From positions 51,298-115,297 of the forward strand of contig CALSBM010000001.1 in assembly GCA_943373175.1 (NCBI GenBank): a DNA stretch of 64,000 bases, in the 5' to 3' direction. A program made the position numbers and the translations under genes. This document shows, piece after piece, positions 1,219 through 43,583 of the stretch; within the stretch, counting starts at the first letter, position 1; each line of letters begins with the position of its first letter. A model generated the notes under the pieces. It saw only the letters and a program-made list of their open reading frames with translations, made no database searches and had not been told where the DNA came from. Origin of the DNA: Chitinophaga pinensis. GTDB taxonomy: Bacteria; Bacteroidota; Bacteroidia; UBA7662; JAIXUI01.

Positions 1219-1220
1219 AT

Positions 1221-1865: not shown

Positions 1866-1935
1866 AGTATTAAGGAATTATTGTAAGTGACTTATCCTTG
1901 CAAGTAATTTTGCTAATTTCTAAACACAACTTTTT

Positions 1936-2688
1936 TTAGTTTCTAGTATCTCTGTTTTCTATTAGAAGATCTTGTACAAATTCAGAATATCGGGGTTGAT
2001 AGTTGTTTTGCTGTTCTTTAAATTTAATAGCTAATTCAGCGCGGATAAAATCATCCTCTTCATCAATATCAATGGTTGCAAACCCATCTAATGGAAAAGT
2101 AAGAATCTCTCCGCTTAACACGGCATAACCATTGGCTTCATACGATTCCATAAATTTTTTAGTGTCATATAACGCAATAGAAAAATTTAAAGCATGAACT
2201 GGCTGCAAATCCTGTGACCTTGGTAATTGTCCATCACAGGAAAAGTTCAAAGATTTTCCATTGAAAAAACAATGGGTTTGAATTTTTTCACAAGTAATCA
2301 ATGTATTTGCTTCTGACTTCAAATAGGCAAGAACAGCATCATCAATTATTTGACCTGTTATAAATGGAGCTGTTGGGGTAATAACAGCCAGAAAATCTGA
2401 AGGTACTGCCTTCATAAAATCATAGATATAATCATCTATCATAGAAGTACTTGTAGCTAATTCTGCCCGTCTATGATAAAAGTTCACCTCAAGTTTTTTT
2501 GCAATTTCTTCCCATTGAATAGCGTCCGAATTGATGTAAATTCCTTCAGAAATATAATTACTGGATTTTATCGCATTCAATGTATGTTCCAGCAAAGTAA
2601 CCTCGCCTAAAAGGCGCATTCCTTTCATCGGGACACGATTGCTTCCAAGCCTAGAAGGTACTACTGTTAGAAATGTTCCTTGTTTCAT
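1936..2688 (-). CDS. NeuA/KdsB-family CMP-ulosonic acid cytidylyltransferase (second copy, divergent)
   Basis: VVPSRLGSNRVPMKG...LLG matches the IPARxGSKxxPxKN P-loop of acylneuraminate/Kdo cytidylyltransferases, 250 aa. Confidence 0.6.
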   Translation of the reverse strand: MKQGTFLTVVPSRLGSNRVPMKGMRLLGEVTLLEHTLNAIKSSNYISEGIYINSDAIQWEEIAKKLEVNFYHRRAELATSTSMIDDYIYDFMKAVPSDFLAVITPTAPFITGQIIDDAVLAYLKSEANTLITCEKIQTHCFFNGKSLNFSCDGQLPRSQDLQPVHALNFSIALYDTKKFMESYEANGYAVLSGEILTFPLDGFATIDIDEEDDFIRAELAIKFKEQQNNYQPRYSEFVQDLLIENRDTRN

Positions 2689-2788: not shown

Positions 2789-4063
2789 CTATCTGCCTGG
2801 CATAAATGCCGGAGCTCTATTTGCCAAAGATTTTATTCTGTTTTGACTTACTTGCTTATCAACAATGCAGTAATGACTAACTATAATTGCAAGTATAAAC
2901 ATATTGATTTGTGAGAACCAGTTTGGATTTGAAATCCCATAAATCAACTCTGAGACAAAAAGAGTCATAAAAAACGTTGAAGAGTATGAAGAGAACAACT
3001 TGTTATTAACTCCCCAATTTTTAATTATTCTTTTGAACATTTGGATATAAATAGAAAGATATGCTATCAAACCTAAAATTCCAGTTTGAGCAGCAATATC
3101 AAGCAAATCAGAGTGGCTAATACTTCCTAACTTATACTTAATTTGATTGAGACCTACTCCTATAATTGGATTATCAAGAAATAGACTAAAGGTCTTTTGG
3201 TAAAGACTAAGCCTCGCCTCCCCCTCTACAGCGTCGTCTAATGAATCGTTTCTTGTTAAACGCCGATAAAGAAAAGTATCGCCGAAAAGGGCATCTCCAA
3301 AGGTTAAAAATATCATGTAAAGTATATAAACAACGATCAAAGCTGCAACAAGTCGGCCTCCACTAAGTCGTTTAAAAAAGAAAAACATCGCTAGCGAAAG
3401 GAAAATATTTGCAAAGGCTCCGCGGGAAGCAGTAAGAATAATAACATTAATACAGAAGCCTAAAAGTCCCACATACATTAATTTCTTAACAACTCCCTCC
3501 GCTGTAAAGGCATAAAACAACGCCAACAATACGCCAATCCTTGAGAAAGTTGCCAAGCCATTTGCATTTCCTGTAATTCCTGTTAATCGGTAGTATTCAT
3601 CAGAAGCGTCTTGAGTAGGATCTTTAATAACAACACTTAATACTGCAACTGTAATGGAAGCTAAAAAAACTGATTTGAAAAGAAGCTTAATCTCATTGGG
3701 TTTTTCAACTGAAGAAAAAACCATAATCATAAGAAGCCAGTTAGAAAGAATCACTTTAATGTACCTGAAATAACCATCCGTGTCTTCAACATTAACAAGT
3801 CCAAGAAGTGAGATTGGAAGCAGCGCTCCAAACAATTTTATTTCAACAGGCAGTTTTGTGATTTTGGTTACATTATTAGAAAGCACATAAAATAGAACCA
3901 TTGGGCCTAAAACCCAGAGAATGATTTGATTTAAACCTGAAGAGGCAAAGTTACCATACAGAGAACCGACAAGAAAGATAAACACATAAGCTGCCATTAC
4001 TTTGGCACTCATGCTTACTGTTTCCACTACATCTGGAAGGCGTTGTACGCCAGATAAAATCAT
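2789..4063 (-). CDS. O-antigen polymerase/ligase family membrane protein (Wzy_C-like)
   Basis: 424 aa, about 10-12 hydrophobic segments with a large loop, typical position in a polysaccharide locus. Confidence 0.55.
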   Translation of the reverse strand: MILSGVQRLPDVVETVSMSAKVMAAYVFIFLVGSLYGNFASSGLNQIILWVLGPMVLFYVLSNNVTKITKLPVEIKLFGALLPISLLGLVNVEDTDGYFRYIKVILSNWLLMIMVFSSVEKPNEIKLLFKSVFLASITVAVLSVVIKDPTQDASDEYYRLTGITGNANGLATFSRIGVLLALFYAFTAEGVVKKLMYVGLLGFCINVIILTASRGAFANIFLSLAMFFFFKRLSGGRLVAALIVVYILYMIFLTFGDALFGDTFLYRRLTRNDSLDDAVEGEARLSLYQKTFSLFLDNPIIGVGLNQIKYKLGSISHSDLLDIAAQTGILGLIAYLSIYIQMFKRIIKNWGVNNKLFSSYSSTFFMTLFVSELIYGISNPNWFSQINMFILAIIVSHYCIVDKQVSQNRIKSLANRAPAFMPGR

Positions 4064-4102: not shown

Positions 4103-5065
4103 TTAAAGTAATTCTGATTGTTTCATTATCCAGCTAAAGGTGTTAGCCATTCCCTTCTGAAGAGGCCATTGAGGTTTCCAACCAAGCTTTTCCTGAATTA
4201 ATTTATTATCCGAGTTACGCCCCCGAACCCCTGTAGGGCCAGGAATATTTCGAATCGTTAGTTTTTTTCCTGATAAAGAAATAGTTATTTCAGCAAGCTG
4301 ATTAATAGACACCATTTCATCAGAACCTATGTTTACAGGTCCTTCAAAATCAGACTCCATTAACCTGCGCACACCTTCAAGGCATTCGTCGATATAAAGG
4401 AATGAGCGCGTCTGAAGTCCATCGCCCCAGATTTCAATAAAACTATTATCTTTTGCCTCAACTACTTTTCTACAAATTGCAGCAGGTGCTTTTTCTTTTC
4501 CACCTTTCCAAGTTCCACAAGGCCCGAAAATATTATGAAAACGTGCTATCCGGACTTTAAGCCCATAATTACGGGCGTACGATAGATAAAGACGTTCTGA
4601 AAACAATTTTTCCCATCCATACTCACTATCTGGTGCAGCCGGATAAGCCGAATCTTCTGAGCACTCTGGATTGTTAGGATCTAACTGATTATACTCAGGA
4701 TAAATACAGGCAGATGAAGAATAAAAAACACGGTCAACTTGATGCTTATGGCATAGATGTACAATATTCAGATTGATTAATGCAGAATTATGCATTACGT
4801 CGGCATCATGTTCGCCAGTAAATATGTAACCAGCACCTCCCATGTCTGCAGCTAACTGATAAACATGATCAAACTGGCGATCAAACAAGGTTGAACAGAA
4901 TGACGAATCGCGTAAGTCTCCTAAAATAAAATCATCGGAGTTGCTATTTCCATATTCATTTATTTTTAAGTCAACGCCTCTGACCCAAAATCCTTCATTT
5001 TTTAACCTATTTACTAAATGGCCTCCGATAAATCCTCCGGCTCCCAGTACGAGTGCATGCTTCAT
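4103..5065 (-). CDS. NAD-dependent epimerase, GDP-mannose 3,5-epimerase-like
   Basis: GAGGFIGGHL Rossmann motif; SSACIYPE and RFHNIFGPCGTWKGGKEKAPAAICRK segments closely resemble GDP-mannose 3',5'-epimerase. Confidence 0.6.
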   Translation of the reverse strand: MKHALVLGAGGFIGGHLVNRLKNEGFWVRGVDLKINEYGNSNSDDFILGDLRDSSFCSTLFDRQFDHVYQLAADMGGAGYIFTGEHDADVMHNSALINLNIVHLCHKHQVDRVFYSSSACIYPEYNQLDPNNPECSEDSAYPAAPDSEYGWEKLFSERLYLSYARNYGLKVRIARFHNIFGPCGTWKGGKEKAPAAICRKVVEAKDNSFIEIWGDGLQTRSFLYIDECLEGVRRLMESDFEGPVNIGSDEMVSINQLAEITISLSGKKLTIRNIPGPTGVRGRNSDNKLIQEKLGWKPQWPLQKGMANTFSWIMKQSELL

Positions 5066-5204: not shown

Positions 5205-6644
5205 TTAACCTAGTGAAGCAAAATGCGCAATTGCCTCGGATACACGTTGGGTACTTTTGCCATCTATTTTATAGCACTCTTGCTCAGCAGAAAATAGTCG
5301 TTTTTCCTTAAGTCTATCCGGTTCACGAAGGTTAATTCGCAAGAACTCATCTAACTCATCAAAGGAACGTGCAATTTCGACACCTCCAAGATTAATGAAC
5401 TTTTTCATGTGAGTAAATTCTCCCATTCTTACTACAGATTTCCACTCAGGATATCCTGAATGTACATCAAACATTGGCATAACCGTAGGTCGATCTGCAA
5501 TTACTGATTCAATCGCAACTGTTGAACATGAGTTCATCGCAATAGTAGAATGAACCAAGAGTGCCGACATCTTCTCCATATCATCATGTTTCATGTGCCA
5601 AGTCATCTCACTATCCTCCATATCCGGAAAATCTACTGCCACACGCTCTCCTACGATTCCTTTTAAACGGCCAATCCAAGTTATATCTGCTGTTCGGCCT
5701 TGGATATTTTGCATGTGTGGCCGTGCAATAAATTGCATCTGTTCCCCATAATGCTTCTCCTGAACACGTTTAGCAAGCCACTCAATAATATCTATCTCAT
5801 CCGGACAGAAGTATGGCGCACTCATGCAAAAGAATATATATGGAAAATCAGGATTAAGACCAAGTTTTTCAAGCCAGACTCTCTCTTTGCCAACTTCCCT
5901 ACTTTGAAAATGAAGGTCAAAATGGGCAACTCCTGTTTCTCTTATATTAGCTCTTGAAACTTTATAAAACGCTTCTATCTCATGCGTCATTATTGGCCCC
6001 CATGAAAGGTAATAATCACCTTCTTCACGGAAATAACCCTTACAAGTGATGTTGTCCCAACTAAGTATATTGAGCAATCTCTTTAATCTAAGCTTTCTAG
6101 CAGTACCAAGAACTACACCTTCCCATCGGTCAACCGGGCGTGTAGAAACTATAAGATCCGGTTTCAACGATTTTAGTTTATTCAATACATCTTCATCATA
6201 ATTTCCAGATCTTTCTACACTTAAATAAAGTTTCTTCAAGAATGGCAGTGCATTAGATAAATAAGAAAGTAAAAGAAAAAATCTAGCAATCCATCTTCTT
6301 AAGTAGGGTGTTTGAGATTTATCAACTCTTCTGAGATGCTTCTCCCAGAGTGCAGGATTCGATTTAATATCTTCGAGCATATAAATTCGAAACCATTCAC
6401 TAAAAAAGGTTGATCGTCCATGCATCGGTTTAAAGAAATGAACTTCGGCACCAGCATTCGTTACTTTATGCTTGAGCTGATCATTTCCTGTATCAATAGC
6501 AAACACATGTAACTCAAGGTTGCATTTAACAAGTTTTTCGATTAATCCAGTTTGAATTAACCCTCTGGCCGTATGGCCATGTGAAACGAGATAAACTACT
6601 TTTTTCATCTTTAATGGATATCGATTATGCCTGAGAGGTTGCAT
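5205..6644 (-). CDS. hypothetical glycan-biosynthesis protein, possibly a GT-B-fold transferase (candidate ulosonic/sialic acid transferase or capsule synthesis protein)
   Basis: 479 aa, no signal peptide, embedded between the deacetylase and epimerase genes; the real start is probably the internal MKKVVYLVSHG at about 6608; I did not recognise a family. Confidence 0.3.
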   Translation of the reverse strand: MQPLRHNRYPLKMKKVVYLVSHGHTARGLIQTGLIEKLVKCNLELHVFAIDTGNDQLKHKVTNAGAEVHFFKPMHGRSTFFSEWFRIYMLEDIKSNPALWEKHLRRVDKSQTPYLRRWIARFFLLLSYLSNALPFLKKLYLSVERSGNYDEDVLNKLKSLKPDLIVSTRPVDRWEGVVLGTARKLRLKRLLNILSWDNITCKGYFREEGDYYLSWGPIMTHEIEAFYKVSRANIRETGVAHFDLHFQSREVGKERVWLEKLGLNPDFPYIFFCMSAPYFCPDEIDIIEWLAKRVQEKHYGEQMQFIARPHMQNIQGRTADITWIGRLKGIVGERVAVDFPDMEDSEMTWHMKHDDMEKMSALLVHSTIAMNSCSTVAIESVIADRPTVMPMFDVHSGYPEWKSVVRMGEFTHMKKFINLGGVEIARSFDELDEFLRINLREPDRLKEKRLFSAEQECYKIDGKSTQRVSEAIAHFASLG

Positions 6645-7617
6645 GCAAATGCCACGACCGGTGGCTCATTGCAGTCATAAAGCTTTCCTCTTTGGCTTTG
6701 AAATGTTTACCTCCCGGAGCATCATTGTTGTCAATTCTTGCTAAAGCAAACGGTTGATTAAGATGTGTATTAATTGCTCTTTCCATGGTAAAAGCAAACT
6801 TATACCCTGCACGCTCAAGAATAGAAGCCATTCCTTGAGCAGAGCTTTTTGAACCATAAGGAAAAGAGAAACCAGAAACAGGCATTCCGATTAGTTGTGT
6901 AAGAATGGATTGAGATCGCTCGACCTCTTCGTGTTTTCGATTCTCATCCATATTACCTGTTGGCACATGAGTATGGCCATGAGAACCCAAATACCCTCTT
7001 CTACCCAAATCAATCACCTGCTGATGGTTCATATACAATGATTGATGAATAGCCGCTTCGTCCCCAAAATACTCTTCAAATAATTGATTAATAACAACTT
7101 CAAGCTGGTCTCCAGTTAGAAGAAAATTCATTTTATATTTTAGAATAGCAGCTTCTAACGTGTCGTACTTATAGTGATCTGAAGCCTTCGATGCAATTTC
7201 TTTTTCATCATAGGAGTTAAACAATTCCTTGTATTGAAGGTGCAAAGCTATAGAAACAGTTTCTGGTGAAAGCTGGCTTCTTACTAAATGGATTTTATGA
7301 ACATTTTGAACGACAGAACCTTCAACGCTTGCGGTGTTAACAAAGAACAATGCCGGAATACCCATAGCGTCAAGCACCGGAAGAGCCAACTCATACTGTT
7401 CTTTTAACCCATCATCAAAGGTTATAATCAACGCATTATTGGGAAGTGATTGATTGCCATCAATTGCGCCCACAATGTCACTGCATGAAACAAATGTTCC
7501 TTCTTTTGACATTTTTTCCAGCGCATTCCTAAACCCTTCTGGAGTACATCCGAAAATGCTTGGAAATGGCGCATCAAAACTATTGCGGATATAGTGGAAG
7601 TTTACGGCGAGCAACAT
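6625..7617 (-). CDS. polysaccharide deacetylase (NodB/CE4 family)
   Basis: TFDDG motif and a His-rich C-terminal half, 330 aa. Confidence 0.7.
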   Translation of the reverse strand: MLLAVNFHYIRNSFDAPFPSIFGCTPEGFRNALEKMSKEGTFVSCSDIVGAIDGNQSLPNNALIITFDDGLKEQYELALPVLDAMGIPALFFVNTASVEGSVVQNVHKIHLVRSQLSPETVSIALHLQYKELFNSYDEKEIASKASDHYKYDTLEAAILKYKMNFLLTGDQLEVVINQLFEEYFGDEAAIHQSLYMNHQQVIDLGRRGYLGSHGHTHVPTGNMDENRKHEEVERSQSILTQLIGMPVSGFSFPYGSKSSAQGMASILERAGYKFAFTMERAINTHLNQPFALARIDNNDAPGGKHFKAKEESFMTAMSHRSWHLHATSQA

Positions 7618-8421
7618 TTAAAACGCGGTTACTATTGGGTATTGAGCCTGCCTAACAGACTGCTGATTAATATACTCAGCCATCATTCCAGACTCAAACT
7701 GCTCATACATTTTTTGAATATCTAGGGCGTTCAGGTCTTTTCTTTTGCATTCTTCACCCTGAGTTAAATCTTGTGCTTTAGGTTGAAGTATCCTAGAATG
7801 GTATCGTTTTACCACCTCTGGAAACGCTTCGACGGCCTTTATAATGGTTTTATGTCCTAAATCATGGGGGCCATCTAGATGTCCGGCATCAGGACGAACT
7901 TGGTGCAAGATTGCGCCTGCATCTACTTGCAGGGTGGCCAAATGTAAGGTTGCGCCAACACATTCCGGTTTTCCATGCACCAAAGGCCAGAAATTGGTTC
8001 CTGAACCACGGTAATAAGGCGAAAGTCCTAAATGCAAATTCAGAAAACGGTTCTCATACTGGCTAAGCAATGGTGCTTTAATTAAGCTTGAACCGAATAG
8101 GAGGATATAGTCGAAATTATGGTTGGCAATCCAGTTTATTATATCTTCTGAATTGCTTTTGCCTGTTTCTACCCAAACAGCATCCAGGTTGTCAACATTA
8201 CTTGCCTCTTCGAAGAAATACTTCTCACTGACTTGTCGAGCCTTAAAGTGTTCTTCCATGACTTGCTTTTCCTCTACAGGCCAGTCAAATCTTTCGTGGA
8301 CATTGGCCTTTTTCTCAAAAACAACTCCGGCAACAGGCAAATGGTGGCTGATATAATTCGCCATAAAGCGATGCCTCAGCTCATTTCCAGTAATTATCAG
8401 TACTCTAGGTTTTTCCATCAT
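7618..8421 (-). CDS. sugar N-formyltransferase (formyl_trans_N domain)
   Basis: NLHLGLSPYYRG matches the N-x-H-x-S-L-L-P-x-x-R-G formyltransferase catalytic motif; 267 aa; ATGA start/stop overlap with the downstream gene. Confidence 0.65.
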   Translation of the reverse strand: MMEKPRVLIITGNELRHRFMANYISHHLPVAGVVFEKKANVHERFDWPVEEKQVMEEHFKARQVSEKYFFEEASNVDNLDAVWVETGKSNSEDIINWIANHNFDYILLFGSSLIKAPLLSQYENRFLNLHLGLSPYYRGSGTNFWPLVHGKPECVGATLHLATLQVDAGAILHQVRPDAGHLDGPHDLGHKTIIKAVEAFPEVVKRYHSRILQPKAQDLTQGEECKRKDLNALDIQKMYEQFESGMMAEYINQQSVRQAQYPIVTAF

Positions 8422-9332
8422 CCAAAATATTGGCGTAACAGCTTTTCGGCCATAAAAACTTCACAGGCATGCATAGCATCCAAAGATGCACCACCGATAT
8501 GAGGGGTTATCAACACTGGAAGACCCTCTGCCCTTGCGAGAAAAAGCGGACTCTTCTTGTAATCTTCAAGTTCTGTAGCCAAAACGTCGGTACCAACTGC
8601 TTTTAACTTTCCAGAACGTAGTGCATCAGATAAAGCAAATTCGTCAACCAACCCACCTCTAGAAGTGTTCAGAAACCAAGCTGCGGGTTTGAATTTGGCG
8701 ATTAATTCCCTACTAATCATACCTTTAGTAGTCGCATCATAAGGAACATGCAAGCATATTACGTCACTGGTTTCTACCAGTTCCTCCAAAGAATCGTACT
8801 GCTTGTAATCAGGGTTTACAACTTGTGGGTCAACATACCGAACTTGCATACCGAAGGCCTGCCCGTAACGAGCCATCATGCTACCAATTCTACCTAAACC
8901 TATGATACCTAAAGATTTACCTCTGAGTTGATGTCCTCTAAATAAATCTCTGTTCCAAACCCCATGATCTACTGAAGCCATAGCAGATGGAATATGCCGC
9001 ATCATAGCAAGCAACAATCCCCAGCTCAATTCAGCAGTAGAAGGTATGGTCTCTAAGAAAGCAGTCTCTCCTTTCAACGAAAGAAAACCAATGTTTCTTT
9101 GTTTCATCGTTTCTAAATCAAGATGATCAAGACCAGTAGTGGCGGTAACCACCCATTTAAGACGTGGAAACTGACTTAAAACAGACGTATCAATTTTCTT
9201 GGCAAGCCTAACTATTAGTACCTCTGCATCTGGATGAGCATCAGGGAAATAAAGAAACTTAGTTTGTAAAAGTGCAACGGCATCCAAACTATAACGGTCT
9301 GGCTCCAGGTTGCTTACCAGTATTTGGCTCAT
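8418..9332 (-). CDS. D-isomer-specific 2-hydroxyacid dehydrogenase (PdxB/SerA/GhrA-like)
   Basis: GIIGLGRIGS NAD-binding motif, catalytic R/E/H region near the C-terminus (ITPHIGG), 304 aa. Confidence 0.75.
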   Translation of the reverse strand: MSQILVSNLEPDRYSLDAVALLQTKFLYFPDAHPDAEVLIVRLAKKIDTSVLSQFPRLKWVVTATTGLDHLDLETMKQRNIGFLSLKGETAFLETIPSTAELSWGLLLAMMRHIPSAMASVDHGVWNRDLFRGHQLRGKSLGIIGLGRIGSMMARYGQAFGMQVRYVDPQVVNPDYKQYDSLEELVETSDVICLHVPYDATTKGMISRELIAKFKPAAWFLNTSRGGLVDEFALSDALRSGKLKAVGTDVLATELEDYKKSPLFLARAEGLPVLITPHIGGASLDAMHACEVFMAEKLLRQYFG

Positions 9333-10030
9333 TAGTGTTTTTCAGAAAGCCAGTCCTTCATCACTACCTCGGCGATTAACAAATCGCGTGGCTCATCAAT
9401 ATTAAGCAATTGGGAAGCAGGCATTAGATAACCCAAACTAGGGGAAGCCATCACAGTTCCTACTTGTTTAAATGCTTCACAACGAACAACATAAATAGAT
9501 CCGTTGCGATAAAAGGCAGGAGGAATATCCTGTCTTCTTGTACTTTCAAATTCCGGCATAATGGGCTGAAGGTCAGGAGCATCTCCTTTCATCCAGTACA
9601 TTCTTGCGGGGTGAACATCATTCATTGCACATACGGAAATAACCGAGTTAGCATGGGCATTCCGCTTAAGTAAATCCATGCTTTCAGCTATTTGAGCAGA
9701 GGTACGAATAGGAGAAGTGGGTTGAAGCAAAACAACCGCTTCAACATCTGTATCAGAGAGGGCAAGCACTGCTTCAATTGTTTCTCCAATGGGGCTATTA
9801 TCGCGGGCAATAGCAGGATCACGTTCATGAATTTTCACATCCGGATATAGGCGGGCAACATCGAGTATTTGCAAATCATCGCTACTAACCCAAACCTCAT
9901 GAATTGCCTCACATTGCAAAGCTGCCTCGATGCTATAGGCAATCAATGGTTTCCCTAATACAGGGGCAACATTCTTTCCGGGCACTCCTTTAGAACCTCC
10001 ACGGGCAGGAATCAACGCGATGGCTTTCAT
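9332..10030 (-). CDS. neuA: N-acylneuraminate cytidylyltransferase (CMP-sialic acid synthetase)
   Basis: Canonical IPARGGSKGVPGKN P-loop, LLQPTSPIR motif, 232 aa, directly downstream of the neuC-neuB pair. Confidence 0.85.
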   Translation of the reverse strand: MKAIALIPARGGSKGVPGKNVAPVLGKPLIAYSIEAALQCEAIHEVWVSSDDLQILDVARLYPDVKIHERDPAIARDNSPIGETIEAVLALSDTDVEAVVLLQPTSPIRTSAQIAESMDLLKRNAHANSVISVCAMNDVHPARMYWMKGDAPDLQPIMPEFESTRRQDIPPAFYRNGSIYVVRCEAFKQVGTVMASPSLGYLMPASQLLNIDEPRDLLIAEVVMKDWLSEKH

Positions 10031-11187
10031 TAATAGGAAATCGTCTTATGAAATGAAAGAGGGACAGTTGCTAGCAAGTCGGCTATTTTCTTTCCAGCAT
10101 CTCCTCCTCCGTAAACATGATCTTGTGCTGGTTTTGGCCGGTCTCTACACGCCTGAATGGCGTCAAGAATCGCCTGACGCTGATATTCAACATCGATTAC
10201 ATTCGAGCCTCTGTCACGCATATTCTGCCGAGAGCCGATGTTAACAACCGGAACTCCAAGGAAGGCACTTTCTCTGATTCCTACACTTGAGTTACCTACC
10301 AATGCTTTGCTGTTGTAGATTAATCTCAAGAAGTCGTTGGGCTCCATGTTCTTAAAGAAGTGTACATGGTTGAGTTTGTTTTTTTCACGGAAAGAGCGAA
10401 TTCCTGAAGAAGTTCCATCTGCTCCGGCATCAACATTGGGCCAGAACCAAAAAACGGGAATATCAAGTTCACTTACTGCATGGAGCGTTTCCTCGATATG
10501 CACCCTCGACTCTTTGTATTCTGTAGTAACCGGATGTTGCATTACCACCACATATCCGTTGCTAAAATCAGGTCTAGCCCCAACGCCACCATATTTTTGA
10601 TAGGGGTCGAAATCTAGCGCCGGACTTTGAAGCACTTCTGCTGCCAAATCAATGGAAGGGCAACCCGTATTCCACACTTTATCTTCATGTTCTCCTAAGC
10701 GAATAACTCTTTCGCGTGCACTCTCCGATGCAGTGAAGTGATAGTCAGCAAGTTTAGTTATCGCATGTCTTACTTTCTCATCAATATTTCCGGTTACTTC
10801 TCCACCCTGAACATGTGCCAAAGGAATGTTCATATAAGAGGCTGAAATTGCGGTTGCCATGGTTTCAAATCTGTCGGCTACCGTAACAACAATGTCGGGG
10901 CGAAGGTTATCGAATACTGTTGAAAGTTCCAGGATACCAATACCTGTTGTCTTCGCGGCAGCGGTCAAGTTCTCTCCTTCGAGCACATTAAACACCTTTG
11001 CTGTTATTTCAAATCCATCTTTCTGAATGTAATTAACCGCAGAACCATACCGATCCAGCAATGCTGAAGCTGCAATGATAAGTTGAAGTTCGAGTTCAGG
11101 ATGTTGTTGTATGGCCTTCAATGCAGTTTTGATTCTGCTATAGCTAGGCCTAGCCGTTACAACAACGGCGATTTTTCTTCTGGTCAT
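10030..11187 (-). CDS. neuC: UDP-N-acetylglucosamine 2-epimerase (hydrolysing)
   Basis: 385 aa with UDP-GlcNAc 2-epimerase family architecture, IAHVQGGE motif, adjacent to neuB. Confidence 0.75.
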   Translation of the reverse strand: MTRRKIAVVVTARPSYSRIKTALKAIQQHPELELQLIIAASALLDRYGSAVNYIQKDGFEITAKVFNVLEGENLTAAAKTTGIGILELSTVFDNLRPDIVVTVADRFETMATAISASYMNIPLAHVQGGEVTGNIDEKVRHAITKLADYHFTASESARERVIRLGEHEDKVWNTGCPSIDLAAEVLQSPALDFDPYQKYGGVGARPDFSNGYVVVMQHPVTTEYKESRVHIEETLHAVSELDIPVFWFWPNVDAGADGTSSGIRSFREKNKLNHVHFFKNMEPNDFLRLIYNSKALVGNSSVGIRESAFLGVPVVNIGSRQNMRDRGSNVIDVEYQRQAILDAIQACRDRPKPAQDHVYGGGDAGKKIADLLATVPLSFHKTISY

Positions 11188-12191
11188 TCAACCAAGTCTT
11201 CAAAGTTGAGGAAAGACTGTGCTTGCATATCATGCTTGAGCACACGTCCGATAATACTTTCAAATTGAGCAGCAGGTATTCCCTGATTGGCAGGTTTCTT
11301 CGTTTCTAAATCTTCGAATCGAATAACATGGCCTGCACAAAAACTGCCTCTAACTGCTAATGCTTTCCCAAAAATAATTTTTGCTGTTGCAAAGCGACCC
11401 ACATCGTTCTTATCGACCACGGTATCACGCATAACTTCAATTTGACGAACCGAATGTACTAATTGCTTCACCTCGTCAATTACGAGGGAAGAAGCAGCAT
11501 CTGGGCCAAACATTCTACGATCAAACACAACGTGGAATTCTAATATCTCAGCTCCCAAGCTTACGGCACATAATGGGGCAGCAAGAGACGCAGAGTGATC
11601 TGATAAGCCAACTGGCATTTTATACCGAGCTTTCATTTCCAACATAGCCTGAATACCAACACGTTCTGGAGGAGTCGGGTATTCTGTATTGCACTGAAGT
11701 ACACTTAGAGGAACATTCTTCGACTGAAGAAATGCAATGGATTGGTCGAGTTCGTCATAAGAACTCATTCCAGAAGAAAGTATCACAGGTTTGCCTGTTC
11801 TGGCAATGTGTTCCAGCATTAGCAAATTTGAAACTTCCCCCGAACCAATTTTATAGCGCTTTACCCCTATACGCTCCAACAATTCCACCGCTTCCACAGA
11901 GAAAGGAGATGACATAAATTCCATTCCCTTTTCTTCACAATGTGTTTTAATTCCAACCCATTGTTCTTCCGTAAAGCCCATTCTCTTCCAATAGTCAAAG
12001 CGCGTATTATCCACTTTGGAAAAATTGACTCGGAATGGTTCAAATTCGGAGCTTTCTGCTTCTGCAATATGGGTTTGAAATTTAACAACATCAACTCCTG
12101 TTTCTGCAAGAGCATCGATGTAGGAATGAAGAATGCCAAGGCTTCCATCGTGAGCCTGAGCAATCTCTGCTATAATGAGGGTTTTAGTCAC
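11184..12191 (-). CDS. neuB: N-acetylneuraminate (nonulosonic acid) synthase
   Basis: IAEIAQAHDGSLG...VDVVKFQ NeuB TIM-barrel N-terminus and a C-terminal SAF domain, 335 aa. Confidence 0.85.
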   Translation of the reverse strand: MTKTLIIAEIAQAHDGSLGILHSYIDALAETGVDVVKFQTHIAEAESSEFEPFRVNFSKVDNTRFDYWKRMGFTEEQWVGIKTHCEEKGMEFMSSPFSVEAVELLERIGVKRYKIGSGEVSNLLMLEHIARTGKPVILSSGMSSYDELDQSIAFLQSKNVPLSVLQCNTEYPTPPERVGIQAMLEMKARYKMPVGLSDHSASLAAPLCAVSLGAEILEFHVVFDRRMFGPDAASSLVIDEVKQLVHSVRQIEVMRDTVVDKNDVGRFATAKIIFGKALAVRGSFCAGHVIRFEDLETKKPANQGIPAAQFESIIGRVLKHDMQAQSFLNFEDLVE

Positions 12192-13186
12192 TTGTTTTCA
12201 CCCTCTTGGTCTGAAAACCACCGGAAAGTGCTTTCCAACCCTGTTTTTAAATCAAAAAGGGGATTATATCCCAACAAAGTTCGAGCTTTTGTGATATCTG
12301 CAAGGCTATCGCGAACGTCTCCAGCGCGAGAAGATCCATAAGATGGCTTTAAGGTTGTTGATGAAAGCTCAGCCAGAATATTCCACATGCCGTTTAAGGT
12401 AGTACGTTCTCCAAATGCGATGTTGTAAACCTGATTCAATGCTTCTTGAGAGTCTGTTTCCATCGCACAGATGTTGGCCTGTACTGCGTTTTCTACAAAG
12501 GTAAAATCCCTGCTTTGTTCTCCGTCTCCATTAATCAGTGGTGCTTCACCTTGAAGTATTAATCCAATAAATTTTGGAATAACCGCAGCGTAAGCTCCGT
12601 TTGGGTTTTGCCAAGGACCAAAGACATTGAAGTATCTTAATCCTATTGTATTCACTCCATACACTTTGTAAAAAACATCCGCATAGAGCTCATTAACATA
12701 CTTCGTAACCGCATAAGGAGAAAGGGGCTTTCCAATCTTATCTTCCGTTTTCGGCAACTGCTGACTATCACCATACGTTGAAGAGGAAGCCGCATACACC
12801 ATTTTACCTATGCCTGCTTCGTTTACTGCAACCAACATATTAAGGAATCCGGCAATATTGACTGCATTGGTAGTAATTGGATCATTAATGGATCGAGGAA
12901 CGGAACCCAACGCAGCTTGATGAAGAACATCAGTCATTCCTTTAACTGCATTGTTGCAATCGTCAAGATTACGGATGTCGCCTTCAAGAAATTCAAAGTC
13001 CGGCCTTCCTATGAATTCCTGGATGTTATCTAAGTTTCCAGTAGCTAGGTTATCGAGAACTCGAACCTTTCCGGTACCATGACTAAGTAAGTATCTCACC
13101 AAATTAGAGCCAATAAAACCAGCCCCTCCGGTTACGAGAACACGTCTGTCGGCGAGGTTGCTACGATGATAAATGGGGTTAGTCAA
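12188..13186 (-). CDS. UDP-GlcNAc/UDP-glucose 4-epimerase family (WbpP/TviC-like)
   Basis: VTGGAGFIGSNL Rossmann motif, YxxxK region, 332 aa, paired with a WbpO-like dehydrogenase. Confidence 0.75.
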   Translation of the reverse strand: MTNPIYHRSNLADRRVLVTGGAGFIGSNLVRYLLSHGTGKVRVLDNLATGNLDNIQEFIGRPDFEFLEGDIRNLDDCNNAVKGMTDVLHQAALGSVPRSINDPITTNAVNIAGFLNMLVAVNEAGIGKMVYAASSSTYGDSQQLPKTEDKIGKPLSPYAVTKYVNELYADVFYKVYGVNTIGLRYFNVFGPWQNPNGAYAAVIPKFIGLILQGEAPLINGDGEQSRDFTFVENAVQANICAMETDSQEALNQVYNIAFGERTTLNGMWNILAELSSTTLKPSYGSSRAGDVRDSLADITKARTLLGYNPLFDLKTGLESTFRWFSDQEGENK

Positions 13187-13198: not shown

Positions 13199-14470
13199 TT
13201 AAAGGCGTGCATCTACCAAAGAACGGTCATAAAACGACTTGATGTCGTAAATGACAGCATTTGGGCTTGTAATGGCTTTCACATCGAGATTCGCAAACTC
13301 CTTATGTGATACGGCCAGTACAACAGCATCAAATTTGGTGGCCTTTATAGCAGCTTCAGTACTAAGATCAAGGTCATATTCATGCTTAACTTCTTCAGCA
13401 TCTGCCCAAGGATCAAAAACGCTAACATCTGTATGAAATGCTTTCAGCTCTCGAATCACATCAATGACTTTAGAGTTTCGAATATCAGGGCAATTTTCTT
13501 TGAATGTAATTCCTAGAACAAGGATTTTGGAACCGAGAATCCGCAAATCCTTGCGAACCATGTGCTTCACAATTTGATCAGCAACGTACTGTCCCATTCC
13601 ATCGTTCAATCGACGACCGGCAAGGATAATTTCTGGATGATACCCTACTTCCTGCGCTTTTTGTGCCAAGTAATAAGGATCTACCCCTATGCAGTGCCCT
13701 CCAACTAAACCAGGTTTAAACTTCAAGAAGTTCCACTTGGTGGCCGCTGCATCCAACACATCCTGCGTATCAATCCCCATTAGATTAAAAATCTTGGAGA
13801 GCTCATTGACAAACGCAATGTTGATATCTCTCTGGGAGTTTTCAATCACCTTGGCTGCTTCAGCTACTCTAATGCTTGCCGCTTTAAAGGTTCCGGCTAC
13901 AATTATGGTTTTATAAAGCTGGTCAACGGTTTCAGCAACCTCAGGTGTTGATCCTGAAGTAACTTTCAGAATTTTGGTTACTGTATGCTCTTTATCTCCC
14001 GGGTTAATTCTTTCGGGCGAATAACCGCAGTAGAAATCCTGATTAAACTTAAATCCGGAAACTTTTTCTAACACCGGAACACATTCATCTTCTGTAACAC
14101 CAGGATAAACCGTGGATTCATAAACCACGATATCCCCTTTCTTCAAAACTTTTCCGACTGTTTCACTGGCTTTATAAAGTGGCGTTAAATCCGGACGATT
14201 ATGCTTGTCGGTTGGGGTTGGAACTGTAACAATAAAAATGGTACAATCACGGATTTCGTCAAGTTGTGTGGTGTAGGAAATCTTATCTGATAGTTTCAGG
14301 TTATCTGAATCAACTTCCAGAGTTCGGTCATATCCGTTTTTAAGCTCCTCAATTCGAGAAGCGTTAATATCAAAACCAACGGTTCTGATTTTCTTTCCAA
14401 ACTCAACGGCGAGTGGCAAACCCACGTAACCTAGGCCTATAACGGCAATTTTTGCTTCTGTAACGTTCAT
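13199..14470 (-). CDS. UDP-N-acetyl-D-hexosamine 6-dehydrogenase (UDP-glucose/GDP-mannose dehydrogenase family, WbpO/TviB-like)
   Basis: KIAVIGLGYVGLPLAV N-terminal motif, catalytic Cys region GGHCIGVDPYY, 423 aa; first gene of the operon. Confidence 0.8.
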   Translation of the reverse strand: MNVTEAKIAVIGLGYVGLPLAVEFGKKIRTVGFDINASRIEELKNGYDRTLEVDSDNLKLSDKISYTTQLDEIRDCTIFIVTVPTPTDKHNRPDLTPLYKASETVGKVLKKGDIVVYESTVYPGVTEDECVPVLEKVSGFKFNQDFYCGYSPERINPGDKEHTVTKILKVTSGSTPEVAETVDQLYKTIIVAGTFKAASIRVAEAAKVIENSQRDINIAFVNELSKIFNLMGIDTQDVLDAAATKWNFLKFKPGLVGGHCIGVDPYYLAQKAQEVGYHPEIILAGRRLNDGMGQYVADQIVKHMVRKDLRILGSKILVLGITFKENCPDIRNSKVIDVIRELKAFHTDVSVFDPWADAEEVKHEYDLDLSTEAAIKATKFDAVVLAVSHKEFANLDVKAITSPNAVIYDIKSFYDRSLVDARL

Positions 14471-14930
14471 TCAAGAGAATTTTATCTGTTTCAGTTTATC
14501 GTTTTTCTTTGGTATCGGGGATTAAGCTTTGAACACGCCCCATTAACTTTTTCATAACATTTCCTCAGGGAGCATTAAATATTAATTAGAGATGCTCCAA
14601 CGCTTGTTCCTTCAAAACAAGTCTTTGCTTCCTGATATCATGTCTGCTTGCTCTTTTAACTCCTTGATATTAAGGCGCTTAAAATTAGATGTTGAGTCCT
14701 AAATTTAGAATAATCTTTGATGAAGACACAGCTTCGCCCTTTGAGTCACGGCAAAGTTAACAAACAAGTAGAACTTAAGCCTTCATTATCTATACTCTAC
14801 TAACTGCAACTAAAACCCTTCTATGTAGCCTTGTCTTTAAATGCCCTTATTTAAAGCACTTATAATGGCTGTTATTTTATTATTAATACTAAACACGAGC
14901 AGAGATCATTTCATAAAAATTGGGGAAATA
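14471..14930 (-). promoter_or_regulatory. 460-bp AT-rich untranslated leader/promoter region upstream of the polysaccharide operon
   Basis: No ORF longer than 70 aa; lies between the stop of the upstream SGNH gene and the start of the first operon gene; long leaders are typical of Bacteroidetes polysaccharide loci. Confidence 0.4.
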
Positions 14931-16169
14931 TCAAAAAATCAGCTTTTTAACATTCTCTCTACCGTTTCTAAACCACGTAAGCAGGAGTATATCTCCACGC
15001 TTCCCATAGATAAATCGACAATCTTTCATATTAGTACGTCTTCCGGCAAGATCTGAAATCATTACTTGCGTAGGTTGAGTTTCCCAAATCCACTTATAAT
15101 GCCCATCCTGATATAAAAAACGGTCTTCTTCTTTATCGGAGTACTGTAAGTCTGTGCTATTTAGAAAGACAGTGTTGGTTACGCTGTCTTTAGTATTGCA
15201 ATGTTCGCTGATTAACAACACCGTATAGTTACCGGGGTTAGCATAAAGATGACTTGGAGACCAGGTTGTATCTGACTGGCCGTCTCCAAACGTCCAGCGT
15301 GCTTTCGAAGCGAAAAAGGAGTTGTTCTGAAATTGGACTTGTAAGCCTTGAGTATTCCAACTAAACATAGAAACTGGATGCCAAAGGCCAAGATTCCAAA
15401 GTGGAAGGGAATCGAACACAACCTCGCGTACAACTGTTCTTAACTGCCTCGCTGTAACACTGTCTAGGCTAGCCTTATAATTACATACTTCCGGGTTATT
15501 CTGAAAAAAAATGCTGTAAAAAGCAGAAGCAGCAAGGTATGACCCCGCAATCTCGGGATGGCTGCCATCTGATTGATAAAGAGAAACTTGTGGAAGCAGG
15601 CTTCTCACTTTTTTCCAAACATCTCCAACCGGACACAGCAAGGCCTTATTAGAGTCAGCCATTTGTCGGTACCTTAAAGCAAGCAGGCTATCCATGCCAG
15701 CGTATGTGCATACCGGCGGCCATTGTGCACAATTAGCCTGATCGCCATTTTGCCTTCCCCAAGTGCGATAAAACACCACTTTAGCGCAAGGATTAGCTAA
15801 ATGAATTAAGCTATCAAGTGCTTTGGCATAAGGAAAAACTTCAAGTTCAACTTGGCTTTGTGGAAATGCAGGCCGCTGGCTTTGTTCCTGTAACACTACA
15901 TAATCCCATCCAGGTTGCTGAATTAAACTTAATGTAGGTTGATGAGTGGTGTGCCCCTGAAAAGTAAAACCTCCCGGAGTACTCATAGCAGTAAACACAG
16001 AATCACCAGCAGAAGCTGCCATCTTTGAAACCATCTCTGGGAGGTTATTAACTGCAGTGTAGCTGTTCCCGATGAACAAAACCCGCTTTATACGACCTGT
16101 GGCCTGAGCACTGGCCAATTGCCAGCACATCAGGCCACAAATCATCCAATAAGGAATAGCTATTCTCAT
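14931..16169 (-). CDS. secreted SGNH/GDSL-type hydrolase with a C-terminal PKD domain
   Basis: Signal peptide, FIGNSYT (GDS-like) block, PKD signature WTFGDGQSD...YANPGNYTV, 412 aa; ATGA overlap with the upstream amylase gene. Confidence 0.55.
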   Translation of the reverse strand: MRIAIPYWMICGLMCWQLASAQATGRIKRVLFIGNSYTAVNNLPEMVSKMAASAGDSVFTAMSTPGGFTFQGHTTHQPTLSLIQQPGWDYVVLQEQSQRPAFPQSQVELEVFPYAKALDSLIHLANPCAKVVFYRTWGRQNGDQANCAQWPPVCTYAGMDSLLALRYRQMADSNKALLCPVGDVWKKVRSLLPQVSLYQSDGSHPEIAGSYLAASAFYSIFFQNNPEVCNYKASLDSVTARQLRTVVREVVFDSLPLWNLGLWHPVSMFSWNTQGLQVQFQNNSFFASKARWTFGDGQSDTTWSPSHLYANPGNYTVLLISEHCNTKDSVTNTVFLNSTDLQYSDKEEDRFLYQDGHYKWIWETQPTQVMISDLAGRRTNMKDCRFIYGKRGDILLLTWFRNGRENVKKLIF

Positions 16170-43509: not shown

Positions 43510-43583
43510 CTCCCCGAGCTGGGCTCGAACCAGCGACCCTCTGATTAACAGTCAGATGCTCTAACCGACTGAGCTATCGAGGA
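43510..43583 (-). tRNA. tRNA-Asn (anticodon GTT)
   Basis: Hand-folded cloverleaf: acceptor TCCTCGA/TCGGGGA, D-arm GCTC/GAGC, anticodon arm TCTGA-CTGTTAA-TCAGA, T-arm GCTGG-TTCGAGC-CCAGC, discriminator G; 74 nt; CCA not encoded. Confidence 0.85.

What the first reader, a model, noticed from the sequence alone, without database searches (positions are those of the whole stretch)
6625..12191. Sialic-acid module (neuC-neuB-neuA) coupled to a deacetylase and N-formyltransferase pair: predicted N-formylated nonulosonic acid
neuC, neuB and neuA are canonical and contiguous. Two genes immediately downstream in the same translationally coupled string are a NodB-type deacetylase and a formyltransferase carrying the N-x-H-x-S-L-x-P-x-x-R-G motif. 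Together these suggest removal of an N-acetyl group and its replacement with N-formyl on the nonulosonic acid or its hexosamine precursor. Formylated nonulosonic acids are rare and are not described for this kind of locus as far as I know.
Basis: partly seen in the sequence, partly recalled or inferred. Interest (0 to 1): 0.65.

Follow-up and report, generated by a model that had tools for sequence, protein, structure and literature searches.

The report
Acetyl-to-formyl swap cassette for sialic acid
A surface-sugar gene cluster of a Bacteroidota bacterium pairs sialic-acid genes with a cytoplasmic deacetylase and a formyltransferase; this pair sits in such clusters in over 300 species and most likely replaces the sugar's N-acetyl group with N-formyl, but no chemistry has been done.

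Summary
The genes are real and at the stated coordinates, all on the minus strand. The string is tviB-tviC-neuB-neuC-CMP-synthetase-DH-FT-DAC-GT, with overlapping or abutting stops and starts.

FT (7618-8421) is not Fmt or PurN. It belongs to a large unnamed formyltransferase clade with an invariant Asn-His-Asp triad. Its predicted fold is closest to the sugar N-formyltransferases WbkC and ArnA.

DAC (6625-7617) is a CE4 enzyme with no leader peptide and intact metal ligands. Its fold is closest to the GlcNAc de-N-acetylases PplD, PgaB and IcaB.

Among 52 related loci with full flanks, DAC accompanies FT in 51, and 47 carry neuA, neuB or neuC homologues. Only 3 carry tviB.

The 64-kb window has no sugar aminotransferase, so the acetamido nitrogen from UDP-GlcNAc is the only available amine. 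An acetyl-to-formyl exchange at N5 is therefore the best reading.

The closest precedents are a 2026 preprint on Candidatus Kuenenia (a legionaminic-type cluster, with formylated and free-amine CMP-sugars seen by mass spectrometry) and Halorubrum 5-N-formyl-legionaminic acid.

I rate this a new variant of a known kind. The product has not been tested.

The parts
13199..14470 (-). TviB/WbpO-like UDP-GlcNAc 6-dehydrogenase. It is the first gene of the string and probably supplies a separate (Gal)NAcA residue, not the nonulosonic acid.
   Evidence: NF011729 585.6 bits against a cutoff of 592; TIGR03026 407.6 bits, above cutoff. It accompanies FT in only 3 of 52 full loci.
12188..13186 (-). TviC/WbpP-like SDR, a UDP-GlcNAc(A) C4-epimerase type. 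It overlaps the neuB start by 4 nt.
   Evidence: NF011728 352 bits (below the 760 cutoff); Pfam Epimerase 192 bits.
11184..12191 (-). NeuB-family nonulosonic acid synthase (sugar + PEP condensation) with a SAF domain.
   Evidence: Pfam NeuB 234 bits. TIGR03569 297.9 bits, below the 399.65 cutoff; PseI model 203.7 bits. The best solved relative is N. meningitidis SiaC at 171.6 bits, against PseI at 135.9.
10030..11187 (-). NeuC, a hydrolysing UDP-HexNAc 2-epimerase.
   Evidence: TIGR03568 380 bits, above the 235.9 cutoff. The best solved relatives are the human GNE epimerase domain (224 bits) and Acinetobacter LegG (200.6 bits).
9332..10030 (-). CMP-nonulosonate synthetase (NeuA-like, 232 aa, no esterase domain).
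   Evidence: Pfam CTP_transf_3 75.5 bits. PseF model 125.9 bits, below the 205.7 cutoff. The best solved relatives are CMP-Neu5Ac synthetases 6ifd (100.7 bits) and 1eyr (77.4 bits).
8418..9332 (-). D-isomer-specific 2-hydroxyacid dehydrogenase (DH, phosphoglycerate-dehydrogenase-like). It is an accessory gene of nonulosonic-acid modules that does not depend on FT-DAC. Its substrate is unknown.
   Evidence: 2-Hacid_dh_C 165 bits. PGDH TIGR01327 197 bits, below the 454 cutoff. It is present in only 9 of 52 FT loci. In five FT-less loci it lies directly after the CMP-synthetase gene.
7618..8421 (-). Formyltransferase-fold enzyme of an unnamed clade (FT). Predicted to be an N10-formyl-tetrahydrofolate-dependent N-formyltransferase acting on the de-N-acetylated sugar.
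   Evidence: PF00551 47.5 bits. Fmt 24.3 bits against 201.5 and PurN 37.9 against 150.1. N127, H129 and D166 are invariant in 19 sequences at 43-77% identity. The model has pLDDT 92, and its best fold matches are WbkC and the ArnA N-terminal domain. There are 1612 cluster representatives and 323 species genomes.
6625..7617 (-). CE4/NodB-fold metal-dependent deacetylase (DAC), cytoplasmic, with a helical insert of about 100 aa. Predicted de-N-acetylase of the nonulosonic acid or its precursor.
   Evidence: PF01522 63 bits. D68, D69, H213 and H217 are invariant. The model has pLDDT 91, and residue 2 already lies in strand beta-1, so there is no leader peptide. The best fold matches are PplD, PgaB-N and IcaB; ArnD ranks only 35th. 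DAC is adjacent to FT in 45 of 52 loci.
5205..6644 (-). 479-aa GT-B, TagB-like protein (GT479). It is the candidate transferase for the modified CMP-nonulosonate.
   Evidence: The matches are weak: Glyphos_transf 18.8 bits (cutoff 22.1) and the BFO_1060-family model at E 3.4e-5. The BFO_1060 relatives are the T. forsythia Pse/Leg-derivative transferases shown by knock-out (PMC5420450). The family occurs in 43 of the 81 loci clustered (80 related loci plus the window), with 87 copies.

Best explanation
The string encodes a CMP-nonulosonic acid pathway with a built-in exchange of the N-acyl group.

Proposed steps:
1. NeuC converts UDP-GlcNAc to ManNAc.
2. NeuB condenses ManNAc with PEP to give a neuraminic-type nonulosonic acid.
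3. The cytidylyltransferase activates it as the CMP-sugar.
4. The cytoplasmic CE4 enzyme DAC hydrolyses the N-acetyl group. That nitrogen comes from GlcNAc and becomes N5 of the nonulosonic acid.
5. FT re-acylates the free amine with formyl from N10-formyl-tetrahydrofolate, giving a 5-N-formyl nonulosonate (Neu5Fo type).
6. The TagB-like GT479 transfers the product into a Wzy-dependent surface polysaccharide that probably also contains GalNAcA (TviB/TviC).

What is shown: the gene content and coupling, the family assignments, the conserved catalytic residues, the predicted folds, and the near-obligate FT-DAC pairing inside nonulosonic-acid clusters.

What is inferred:
- The order DAC then FT. 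It follows because no other amine is available.
- The neuraminic rather than legionaminic or pseudaminic type.
- The stage of modification. I favour the CMP-sugar level, by analogy with the Kuenenia mass spectrometry, but ManNAc or UDP-GlcNAc are not excluded.
- The formyl donor.

The dehydrogenase DH is a separate, optional accessory of such modules. It probably adds a further, unidentified modification.
For: - Family assignments and coupling.
- FT: the Asn-His-Asp triad is invariant and aligns with the WbkC active-site stretch. The fold is closest to WbkC and ArnA.
- DAC: the Asp-Asp and His-x3-His motifs are invariant. There is no leader peptide. The fold is closest to the HexNAc de-N-acetylases PplD, PgaB and IcaB.
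- Co-occurrence in 52 full-flank loci: DAC 51, adjacent 45, cytidylyltransferase 44, NeuC 42, NeuB 31, any of these three 47.
- The FT and DAC families are of similar size and share many contig lengths.
- No DegT-type aminotransferase was found in the 64-kb window with the three DegT query sequences at E<=1e-5, so there is no second amine.
- The closest relative of the locus, L085, has the same neuB-neuC-CT-DH-GT479-Epi320-Wzy backbone without FT-DAC. FT-DAC therefore looks like an inserted cassette. The transferase and Wzy are the most diverged proteins (36%), against NeuC at 74%.
- Independent chemistry: in Ca. Kuenenia, CMP-nonulosonates carrying N-formyl and a free amine were found, and its cluster holds a deacetylase plus a formyltransferase (doi 10.64898/2026.04.20.719630).
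- 5-N-formyl-legionaminic acid exists in Halorubrum, with a predicted formyltransferase in the cluster (PMC6137143).
Against: - There is no biochemical or glycan data for this organism or for any member of the FT or DAC clade.
- I could not test homology between this pair and the Kuenenia or Halorubrum proteins.
- NeuB and the cytidylyltransferase score below the curated equivalog cutoffs, so the sugar type (Neu, Leg or other) is not settled.
- NeuB was detected in only 31 of 52 loci within 10 kb.
- CE4 enzymes include O-acetyl esterases.
- The role of DH is unexplained.
- TviB/TviC in the same operon offer another N-acetylated substrate.
Confidence: 0.6

Rival explanations
1. The sugar is a 5,7-diamino (legionaminic or pseudaminic type) nonulosonic acid, as in Ca. 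Kuenenia. FT formylates the second amine (N7), which an aminotransferase encoded elsewhere would supply. DAC independently frees N5. The product would carry one formyl group and one free amine.
For: - The Kuenenia CMP-sugars show exactly this pattern.
- NeuC scores nearly as well against LegG (200.6 bits) as against GNE (224 bits).
- NeuB is below the Neu5Ac-synthase cutoff.
- Some FT-DAC loci, mainly from candidate-phyla-radiation bacteria, carry SDR plus DegT genes nearby.
Against: - No DegT-type aminotransferase was found in the 64-kb window, and there is no LegB/PseB-type match above cutoff.
- DegT occurs in only 12 of about 80 loci.
- The closest backbone loci, L083-L085, also lack dehydratase and aminotransferase genes.
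Confidence: 0.12
2. FT and DAC act on the uronic acid made by TviB/TviC, converting UDP-GalNAcA to UDP-GalNFoA. From memory, 2-formamido galacturonic acid occurs in the Pseudomonas aeruginosa O6 antigen. On this reading the pair has nothing to do with the nonulosonic acid.
For: - tviB and tviC are in the same coupled string.
- The same tviB-SDR-neuB arrangement recurs in L012, L017, L032 and L037.
- AsnB-like amidotransferases accompany the pair in 20 loci. From memory, such enzymes amidate uronic acids.
Against: Across full-flank loci FT-DAC travels with nonulosonic-acid genes (47 of 52). It does not travel with TviB (3 of 52) or with TviC-like SDRs (14 of 52).
Confidence: 0.08
3. The formyl group is only a transient protecting group, as in the ArnA/ArnD logic of lipid A aminoarabinose. 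The mature glycan would carry a free-amine neuraminic acid.
For: - The formyltransferase plus CE4 pairing is the same pairing as ArnA-ArnD (from memory).
- ArnD appears among the fold matches (rank 35).
- Free-amine nonulosonic acids exist in Kuenenia.
Against: - There is no aminotransferase to create the amine, so the single CE4 enzyme must first remove acetyl.
- No second hydrolase is present to remove formyl.
- DAC has no leader peptide or membrane segment.
- DAC resembles N-deacetylases far more than it resembles ArnD.
Confidence: 0.07
4. DAC is an O-acetyl esterase or acts on another sugar, and FT has an unrelated one-carbon or housekeeping role.
For: - The CE4 family includes acetylxylan esterases (lower ranks).
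- Source annotations call FT homologues 'methionyl-tRNA formyltransferase' or 'PurN'.
Against: - FT scores far below the Fmt and PurN cutoffs.
- The FT-DAC adjacency is nearly obligate, and the pair is embedded in nonulosonic-acid clusters.
- No O-acetyltransferase belongs to the conserved core.
Confidence: 0.04

Closest known systems
Deacetylase + formyltransferase in the legionaminic-type cluster of Ca. Kuenenia stuttgartiensis (SugarBase preprint, doi 10.64898/2026.04.20.719630)
   Same: A deacetylase gene and a formyltransferase gene are embedded among neuB, legF and legG-type genes. CMP-activated nonulosonates carrying N-formyl show that the modification precedes glycan assembly.
   Different: - The Kuenenia cluster also has legB and legC, so it makes a diamino sugar, and the product keeps one free amine.
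- The window has no aminotransferase, so both enzymes must act on one nitrogen.
- Sequence homology between the two pairs could not be tested.
- The preprint does not describe the family-wide distribution found here.
5-N-formyl-legionaminic acid pathway of Halorubrum sp. PV6 (PMC6137143)
   Same: A formyl group sits on N5, the nitrogen inherited from GlcNAc. A predicted formyltransferase gene (HrrPV6_1050) is co-transcribed with legB, legC, legF and legG.
   Different: - The sugar is of the legionaminic type.
- The paper mentions no deacetylase.
- HrrPV6_1050 gave a 953-bp RT-PCR product, which suggests a gene longer than the 804 nt (267 aa) of FT.
- No assay of formylation was done.
PseJ and the sugar N-formyltransferases WbkC, ArnA-N, VioF and WlaRD (solved structures)
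   Same: They share the fold and the Asn-His-Asp triad. WbkC is the best match by sequence (40 bits) and by fold (E 2.5e-12). PseJ makes a formylated pseudaminic acid precursor.
   Different: - These enzymes formylate an amine installed by an aminotransferase on an NDP-sugar, so no deacetylase is needed.
- FT shares only 14-22% identity with them, with a TM-score of about 0.6.
- FT has its own strongly conserved motif, HLGLSPYYRGSGTNFWP.
PgaB / IcaB / PplD de-N-acetylases (CE4)
   Same: They share the fold and the metal-binding Asp-His-His, and they hydrolyse the amide of a HexNAc.
   Different: - From memory, those enzymes act outside the cytoplasm on polymers or lipid-linked glycans.
- DAC has no leader peptide.
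- DAC carries a helical insert of about 100 aa with its own invariant residues (VHKIH, Y-x-Y-D).
- DAC scores far below their equivalog cutoffs (60.8 against 321.9).
ArnA / ArnD formylation-deformylation of aminoarabinose
   Same: A formyltransferase is paired with a CE4-fold hydrolase in one sugar pathway.
   Different: - The order and logic are reversed: in Arn the sequence is amination, formylation, then deformylation.
- There is no aminotransferase here.
- ArnD is only a weak fold match (rank 35, E 6.8e-3).

Membership tests
Formyltransferase superfamily (PF00551, N10-formyl-THF dependent) | Pfam domain match above the gathering score | tested here: met
   47.5 bits against 26.1
Formyltransferase superfamily (PF00551, N10-formyl-THF dependent) | Catalytic Asn-His-Asp triad | tested here: met
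   N127, H129 and D166 are invariant in 19 sequences. They align with the NLH...DTG stretch of WbkC.
Formyltransferase superfamily (PF00551, N10-formyl-THF dependent) | Formyltransferase fold | tested here: met
   Model pLDDT 92. Foldseek probability 1.00 to WbkC, ArnA-N and Fmt, with TM-scores of 0.57-0.64.
Formyltransferase superfamily (PF00551, N10-formyl-THF dependent) | Transfers formyl from N10-formyl-THF to an amine | not testable with these tools
   This needs an enzyme assay.
Housekeeping Fmt / PurN | Score at or above the curated equivalog cutoff | tested here: not met
   TIGR00460 fmt 24.3 against 201.5; TIGR00639 PurN 37.9 against 150.1
Characterised sugar N-formyltransferases (ArnA, dTDP-Qui4N formyltransferase) | Score at or above the curated equivalog cutoff | tested here: not met
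   NF005998 ArnA 37 against 777; NF005755 20.8 against 238; NF005414 46.8 against 316
CE4 / NodB deacetylases (PF01522) | Domain match, plus the catalytic Asp and the Asp-His-His metal ligands | tested here: met
   63 bits against 23.1. TFDDG (D68, D69) and H213-x3-H217 are invariant in 18 sequences.
PgaB / IcaB poly-GlcNAc de-N-acetylases | Equivalog score, and export (leader peptide or lipoprotein) | tested here: not met
   TIGR03938 60.8 against 321.9; TIGR03933 35.3 against 248. The N-terminus MLLAVNFHY forms strand beta-1 of the barrel, so there is no leader peptide.
NeuC hydrolysing UDP-HexNAc 2-epimerase (TIGR03568) | Equivalog score | tested here: met
   380 bits against 235.9. The model does not separate NeuC from LegG.
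N-acetylneuraminate synthase NeuB (TIGR03569) | Equivalog score | tested here: not met
   297.9 against 399.65. The Pfam NeuB domain is met at 234 bits. The score is higher than for PseI (203.7).
Legionaminic / pseudaminic (diamino) pathway | A 4,6-dehydratase (LegB/PseB) and a DegT-type aminotransferase (LegC/PseC) in the locus | tested here: not met
   The LegB and PseB models are far below cutoff for both SDRs. No DegT-like sequence was found in the 64-kb window at E<=1e-5. Genes elsewhere in the genome cannot be excluded.
Kuenenia-type deacetylase + formyltransferase nonulosonic-acid cluster | Deacetylase and formyltransferase genes inside a nonulosonic-acid cluster | tested here: met
Kuenenia-type deacetylase + formyltransferase nonulosonic-acid cluster | Sequence homology of FT and DAC to the Kuenenia proteins | not tested
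Planctomycetota members of the family do exist (L005, L009, L027).
TagB-like nonulosonic acid transferases (BFO_1060 family) | Score at or above the family cutoff | tested here: not met
   NF046086 23.1 bits against 200; Glyphos_transf 18.8 against 22.1. This is a resemblance only.

The most novel reading that the evidence does not exclude
DAC would be the first identified gene family for a sialate or nonulosonate de-N-acetylase. Together with FT it would make CMP-5-N-formylneuraminic acid, a natural sialic acid that I could not find described. The cassette would be a widespread, horizontally mobile 'N5 acyl-swap' module. It occurs in at least 323 species, in more than a dozen bacterial lineages including candidate-phyla-radiation bacteria, and in at least one archaeon.
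Probability: 0.4. Interest if true: 0.75.

Novelty: new variant of a known kind. Interest (0 to 1): 0.55.

Why it matters
- Every nonulosonic acid inherits its N5 acetyl group from UDP-GlcNAc. How bacteria place other groups on that nitrogen is largely unknown.
- A dedicated cytoplasmic de-N-acetylase paired with a formyltransferase would explain the N5-formyl forms.
- It would also provide candidate enzymes for making de-N-acetyl and N-formyl sialic acids. From memory, the enzyme responsible for de-N-acetyl sialic acids in animals has not been identified.
- The pair could serve as a genomic marker for predicting modified sialic acids in hundreds of uncultured lineages.
- Changes to the N-acyl group alter charge and recognition by lectins, sialidases, phages and antibodies.

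Tried and rejected
- **Housekeeping Fmt or PurN:** rejected on curated scores. There is no second formyltransferase homologue in the window.
- **DH as part of the formylation chemistry:** rejected. Possible roles considered were formate dehydrogenase, one-carbon supply and donor synthesis. DH is present in only 9 of 52 FT loci. In five loci that lack FT it is a regular neighbour of the CMP-synthetase gene.
- **DH as a relative of the aciABCD or elaABC epimerisation genes of Acinetobacter:** AciB and AciE are short-chain dehydrogenases, a different family. This lead is dropped.
- **Literature on neuB + neuC + 'hydroxyacid dehydrogenase' and on N-formylneuraminic acid:** nothing relevant was found.
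- **L083 as evidence for an alternative acyl swap:** it has a distant DAC relative next to a hexapeptide transferase. That transferase resembles O-acetyltransferases, and the DAC relative lacks several family-invariant residues. This is weak evidence, and I did not use it.
- **Sequence rules to tell Neu synthases from Leg synthases (PMC8208679):** none were usable.
- **Source organism:** I infer Bacteroidota only from a type IX secretion sorting domain upstream and from the nearest relatives.
- **PDB sequence search for GT479:** no meaningful match.

Full report
**1. What is in the sequence**

All genes of the region lie on the minus strand. In order of transcription they are:

| Coordinates | Product | Key evidence |
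|---|---|---|
| 13199-14470 | TviB-like UDP-GlcNAc 6-dehydrogenase | |
| 12188-13186 | TviC/WbpP-like SDR | |
| 11184-12191 | NeuB-family synthase | Pfam NeuB 234 bits; TIGR03569 297.9 bits, below the 399.65 cutoff |
| 10030-11187 | NeuC | TIGR03568 380 bits, above the 235.9 cutoff |
| 9332-10030 | CMP-ulosonate cytidylyltransferase (CT), 232 aa | CTP_transf_3 75.5 bits |
| 8418-9332 | D-2-hydroxyacid dehydrogenase (DH), 304 aa | 2-Hacid_dh_C 165 bits; closest to phosphoglycerate dehydrogenases but below every equivalog cutoff |
| 7618-8421 | Formyl_trans_N protein (FT), 267 aa | |
| 6625-7617 | Polysacc_deac_1 protein (DAC), 330 aa | |
| 5205-6644 | TagB-like GT-B protein (GT479), 479 aa | |

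Consecutive genes from tviC to GT479 overlap or abut, by 4, 4, 1, 1, 4, 0 and 20 nt. This is one coupled string. Further downstream lie an SDR (4103-5065), Wzy (2789-4063), a second cytidylyltransferase, a HAD hydrolase and a GAPDH-like protein.

Three details are not. The gene order is neuB-neuC-neuA. The DH gene between neuA and FT was overlooked. The motif is NLHLGLSPYYRG rather than N-x-H-x-S-L-x-P.

**2. The formyltransferase**

FT is not a housekeeping enzyme. It scores 24.3 bits against the Fmt cutoff of 201.5, and 37.9 against the PurN cutoff of 150.1. It also falls far below the ArnA and dTDP-Qui4N formyltransferase equivalogs.

It belongs to a large unnamed clade. There are 1612 representatives of 90%-identity clusters with E<=1e-3, which their sources annotate only generically. 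A pattern-limited scan of 185,579 species genomes found 323 carriers.

In 19 members sharing 43-77% identity with FT, the triad N127/H129/D166 and the block HLGLSPYYRGSGTNFWP are essentially invariant. The triad aligns with the catalytic stretch of Brucella WbkC.

The AlphaFold model (pLDDT 92) matches WbkC, the ArnA N-terminal domain and Fmt best. Foldseek probability is 1.00, the TM-score is about 0.6 and identity is 14-22%. FT is therefore a formyltransferase-fold enzyme closest to sugar N-formyltransferases, but a clade of its own.

**3. The deacetylase**

DAC has the CE4 catalytic and metal-binding residues. TFDDG (D68, D69) and H213-x3-H217 are invariant in 18 sequences. It also has a helical insert of about 100 aa with its own invariant residues.

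Its N-terminus is strand beta-1 of the barrel in a confident model (pLDDT 91). It therefore has no leader peptide and should be cytoplasmic.

The best fold matches are PplD, the PgaB N-terminal domain and IcaB, all de-N-acetylases of GlcNAc residues. ArnD, a deformylase, ranks 35th.

The DAC family is about the size of the FT family (1437 hits). Many hits lie on contigs of the same lengths as FT hits.

**4. Is the association real?**

I fetched 80 loci around FT homologues and mapped the window's proteins onto them. Among the 52 loci with at least 5 kb on each side:

| Feature | Loci (of 52) |
|---|---|
| DAC present | 51 |
| DAC within 300 bp of FT (either order) | 45 |
| NeuA-like cytidylyltransferase | 44 |
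| NeuC | 42 |
| NeuB | 31 |
| At least one of NeuA, NeuB, NeuC | 47 |
| GT479 family | 26 |
| DH | 9 |
| TviB | 3 |

In a separate clustering of all predicted proteins from the 80 loci plus the window (81 loci), the GT479 family occurs in 43 loci with 87 copies.

The carriers span Bacteroidota, Planctomycetota, Acidobacteriota, Gemmatimonadota, Chloroflexota, Proteobacteria, Actinomycetota, several candidate-phyla-radiation lineages and a Hadarchaeota archaeon.

The FT-DAC pair is thus a near-obligate two-gene cassette of nonulosonic-acid clusters. It is not a partner of the TviB/TviC uronic-acid genes.

**5. Which nitrogen?**

The conserved core (NeuB, NeuC, CT, DAC, FT) contains no aminotransferase. 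The whole 64-kb window has no DegT-like sequence. Neither SDR approaches the LegB or PseB cutoffs.

The only nitrogen available is the acetamido nitrogen inherited from UDP-GlcNAc. It becomes N5 of the nonulosonic acid. Formylation therefore requires prior de-N-acetylation, which fixes the order DAC then FT. This is an inference.

The NeuB-type enzyme scores higher against Neu5Ac synthase than against PseI. NeuC is slightly closer to GNE than to LegG. A neuraminic-type product (Neu5Fo) is the most economical prediction, but the type is not proven.

**6. Evolutionary context**

The closest relative of the locus is a Logan metagenome contig, L085. It has neuB (59% identity), neuC (74%), CT (52%), DH (48%), GT479 (36%), the SDR (71%) and Wzy (36%) in the same order, but no FT-DAC. 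A Ferruginibacter locus, L083, is similar.

FT-DAC therefore looks like a cassette inserted between DH and the transferase gene. The transferase and the polymerase are the most diverged proteins. This fits a changed donor sugar, but the argument is weak and circumstantial.

**7. The dehydrogenase**

DH is not part of the formylation logic. Homologues at 44-52% identity follow the CMP-synthetase gene directly in modules that lack FT. These come from Akkermansiaceae, Ferruginibacter, Marinilabiliaceae, Ardenticatenaceae and L085.

In one Neomarinimicrobiota metagenome-assembled genome (L035), DH and CT share a reading frame.

I found no literature on this association. The substrate is unknown, and DH implies that the final sugar may carry a further modification.

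**8. Comparison with what is known**

N-formyl nonulosonic acids are known.
- PseJ formylates a pseudaminic precursor (PDB 6ci2/6ci4).
- Halorubrum sp. PV6 makes 5-N-formyl-legionaminic acid, with a predicted formyltransferase in the cluster (PMC6137143).
- A 2026 preprint found CMP-nonulosonates with one formyl group and one free amine in Ca. Kuenenia. It pointed to a deacetylase plus formyltransferase between legB/F/C and neuB/legF/legG. That is the only description of the pairing I found.

What is different here:
- The pair sits on an aminotransferase-free, neuraminic-type module.
- Both enzymes must therefore act on a single nitrogen.
- The pair defines two large co-distributed protein clades across many phyla.

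I found no report of a natural N-formylneuraminic acid.

**9. Verdict**

I classify it as a new variant of a known kind, with moderate interest (0.55). Interest would be higher if DAC proves to be a nonulosonate de-N-acetylase that yields Neu5Fo.

Noticed in passing
window 8418-9332 (-); loci L082-L086: A D-2-hydroxyacid dehydrogenase gene follows the CMP-nonulosonate synthetase gene directly in neuB-neuC-CT-DH modules of Akkermansiaceae, Ferruginibacter, Marinilabiliaceae, Ardenticatenaceae and a metagenome contig. All of these lack the formyltransferase. Its role in nonulosonic acid synthesis appears undescribed.
   Followed up: partly
window 163-2688 (-), continuing left of the window in L087:5161-11800: There is a second module. 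It holds a divergent cytidylyltransferase, a HAD hydrolase and a GAPDH-like protein below all GAPDH cutoffs. It continues with a 353-aa protein that hits Pfam alpha-2,8-polysialyltransferase (28 bits, cutoff 23.3), a second 2-hydroxyacid dehydrogenase (28% identical to DH), a GT4, an unknown protein and a 'sugar-transfer associated' ATP-grasp protein. The locus therefore has two cytidylyltransferase / dehydrogenase / CMP-sugar-transferase sets.
   Followed up: partly
L035:13714-15441: In a Neomarinimicrobiota metagenome-assembled genome, the dehydrogenase and the cytidylyltransferase are in one reading frame, an apparent fusion. A single in-frame stop codon lies inside the cytidylyltransferase part. 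It could be a sequencing error, a pseudogene or recoding.
   Followed up: no
L053:6574-8268 and L075 (Vicinamibacterales): A 564-aa protein has its first 227 or so residues matching the NeuA-like cytidylyltransferase. Single-linkage clustering placed it with the methyltransferase family. Separate methyltransferase genes lie inside the cassette in 11 loci, for example between CT and DAC in Rhodohalobacter (L006).
   Followed up: no
L026, L041, L042, L044, L045, L048, L052, L058, L063, L068, L071 (Flavobacteriaceae): An AsnB-type glutamine amidotransferase of about 575 aa is a regular neighbour of the DAC-FT-CT genes, followed by GT479 and a GT4. It occurs in 20 loci in all. It may amidate a carboxylate of the glycan.
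   Followed up: no
L049, L053, L069, L074, L075, L079 (Acidobacteriota): The GT479-like family is strongly expanded, with up to six copies per locus. Some proteins have two tandem domains of the family (1066-1115 aa).
   Followed up: no
L083:11344-12926: A distant relative of DAC (26% identity) keeps the metal ligands but lacks several family-invariant residues. It sits next to a hexapeptide-repeat acetyltransferase instead of a formyltransferase, in a neuB-neuC-CT-DH-GT479 locus of Ferruginibacter.
   Followed up: partly
window 14752-14759 (-): TAACTTTG lies about 280 nt upstream of the tviB start, in the 460-nt intergenic region that heads the string. From memory, it fits the Bacteroidetes -7 promoter consensus TAnnTTTG. 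It could be chance.
   Followed up: no
window 14931-18991 (-): Upstream of the locus are an alpha-amylase-domain protein with a type IX secretion C-terminal sorting domain (941 aa) and a PKD/DUF4886 protein (412 aa). The sorting domain is the main clue that the source is a member of Bacteroidota.
   Followed up: no
window 43510-43583 (-): A tRNA gene is the only Rfam match in the window.
   Followed up: no
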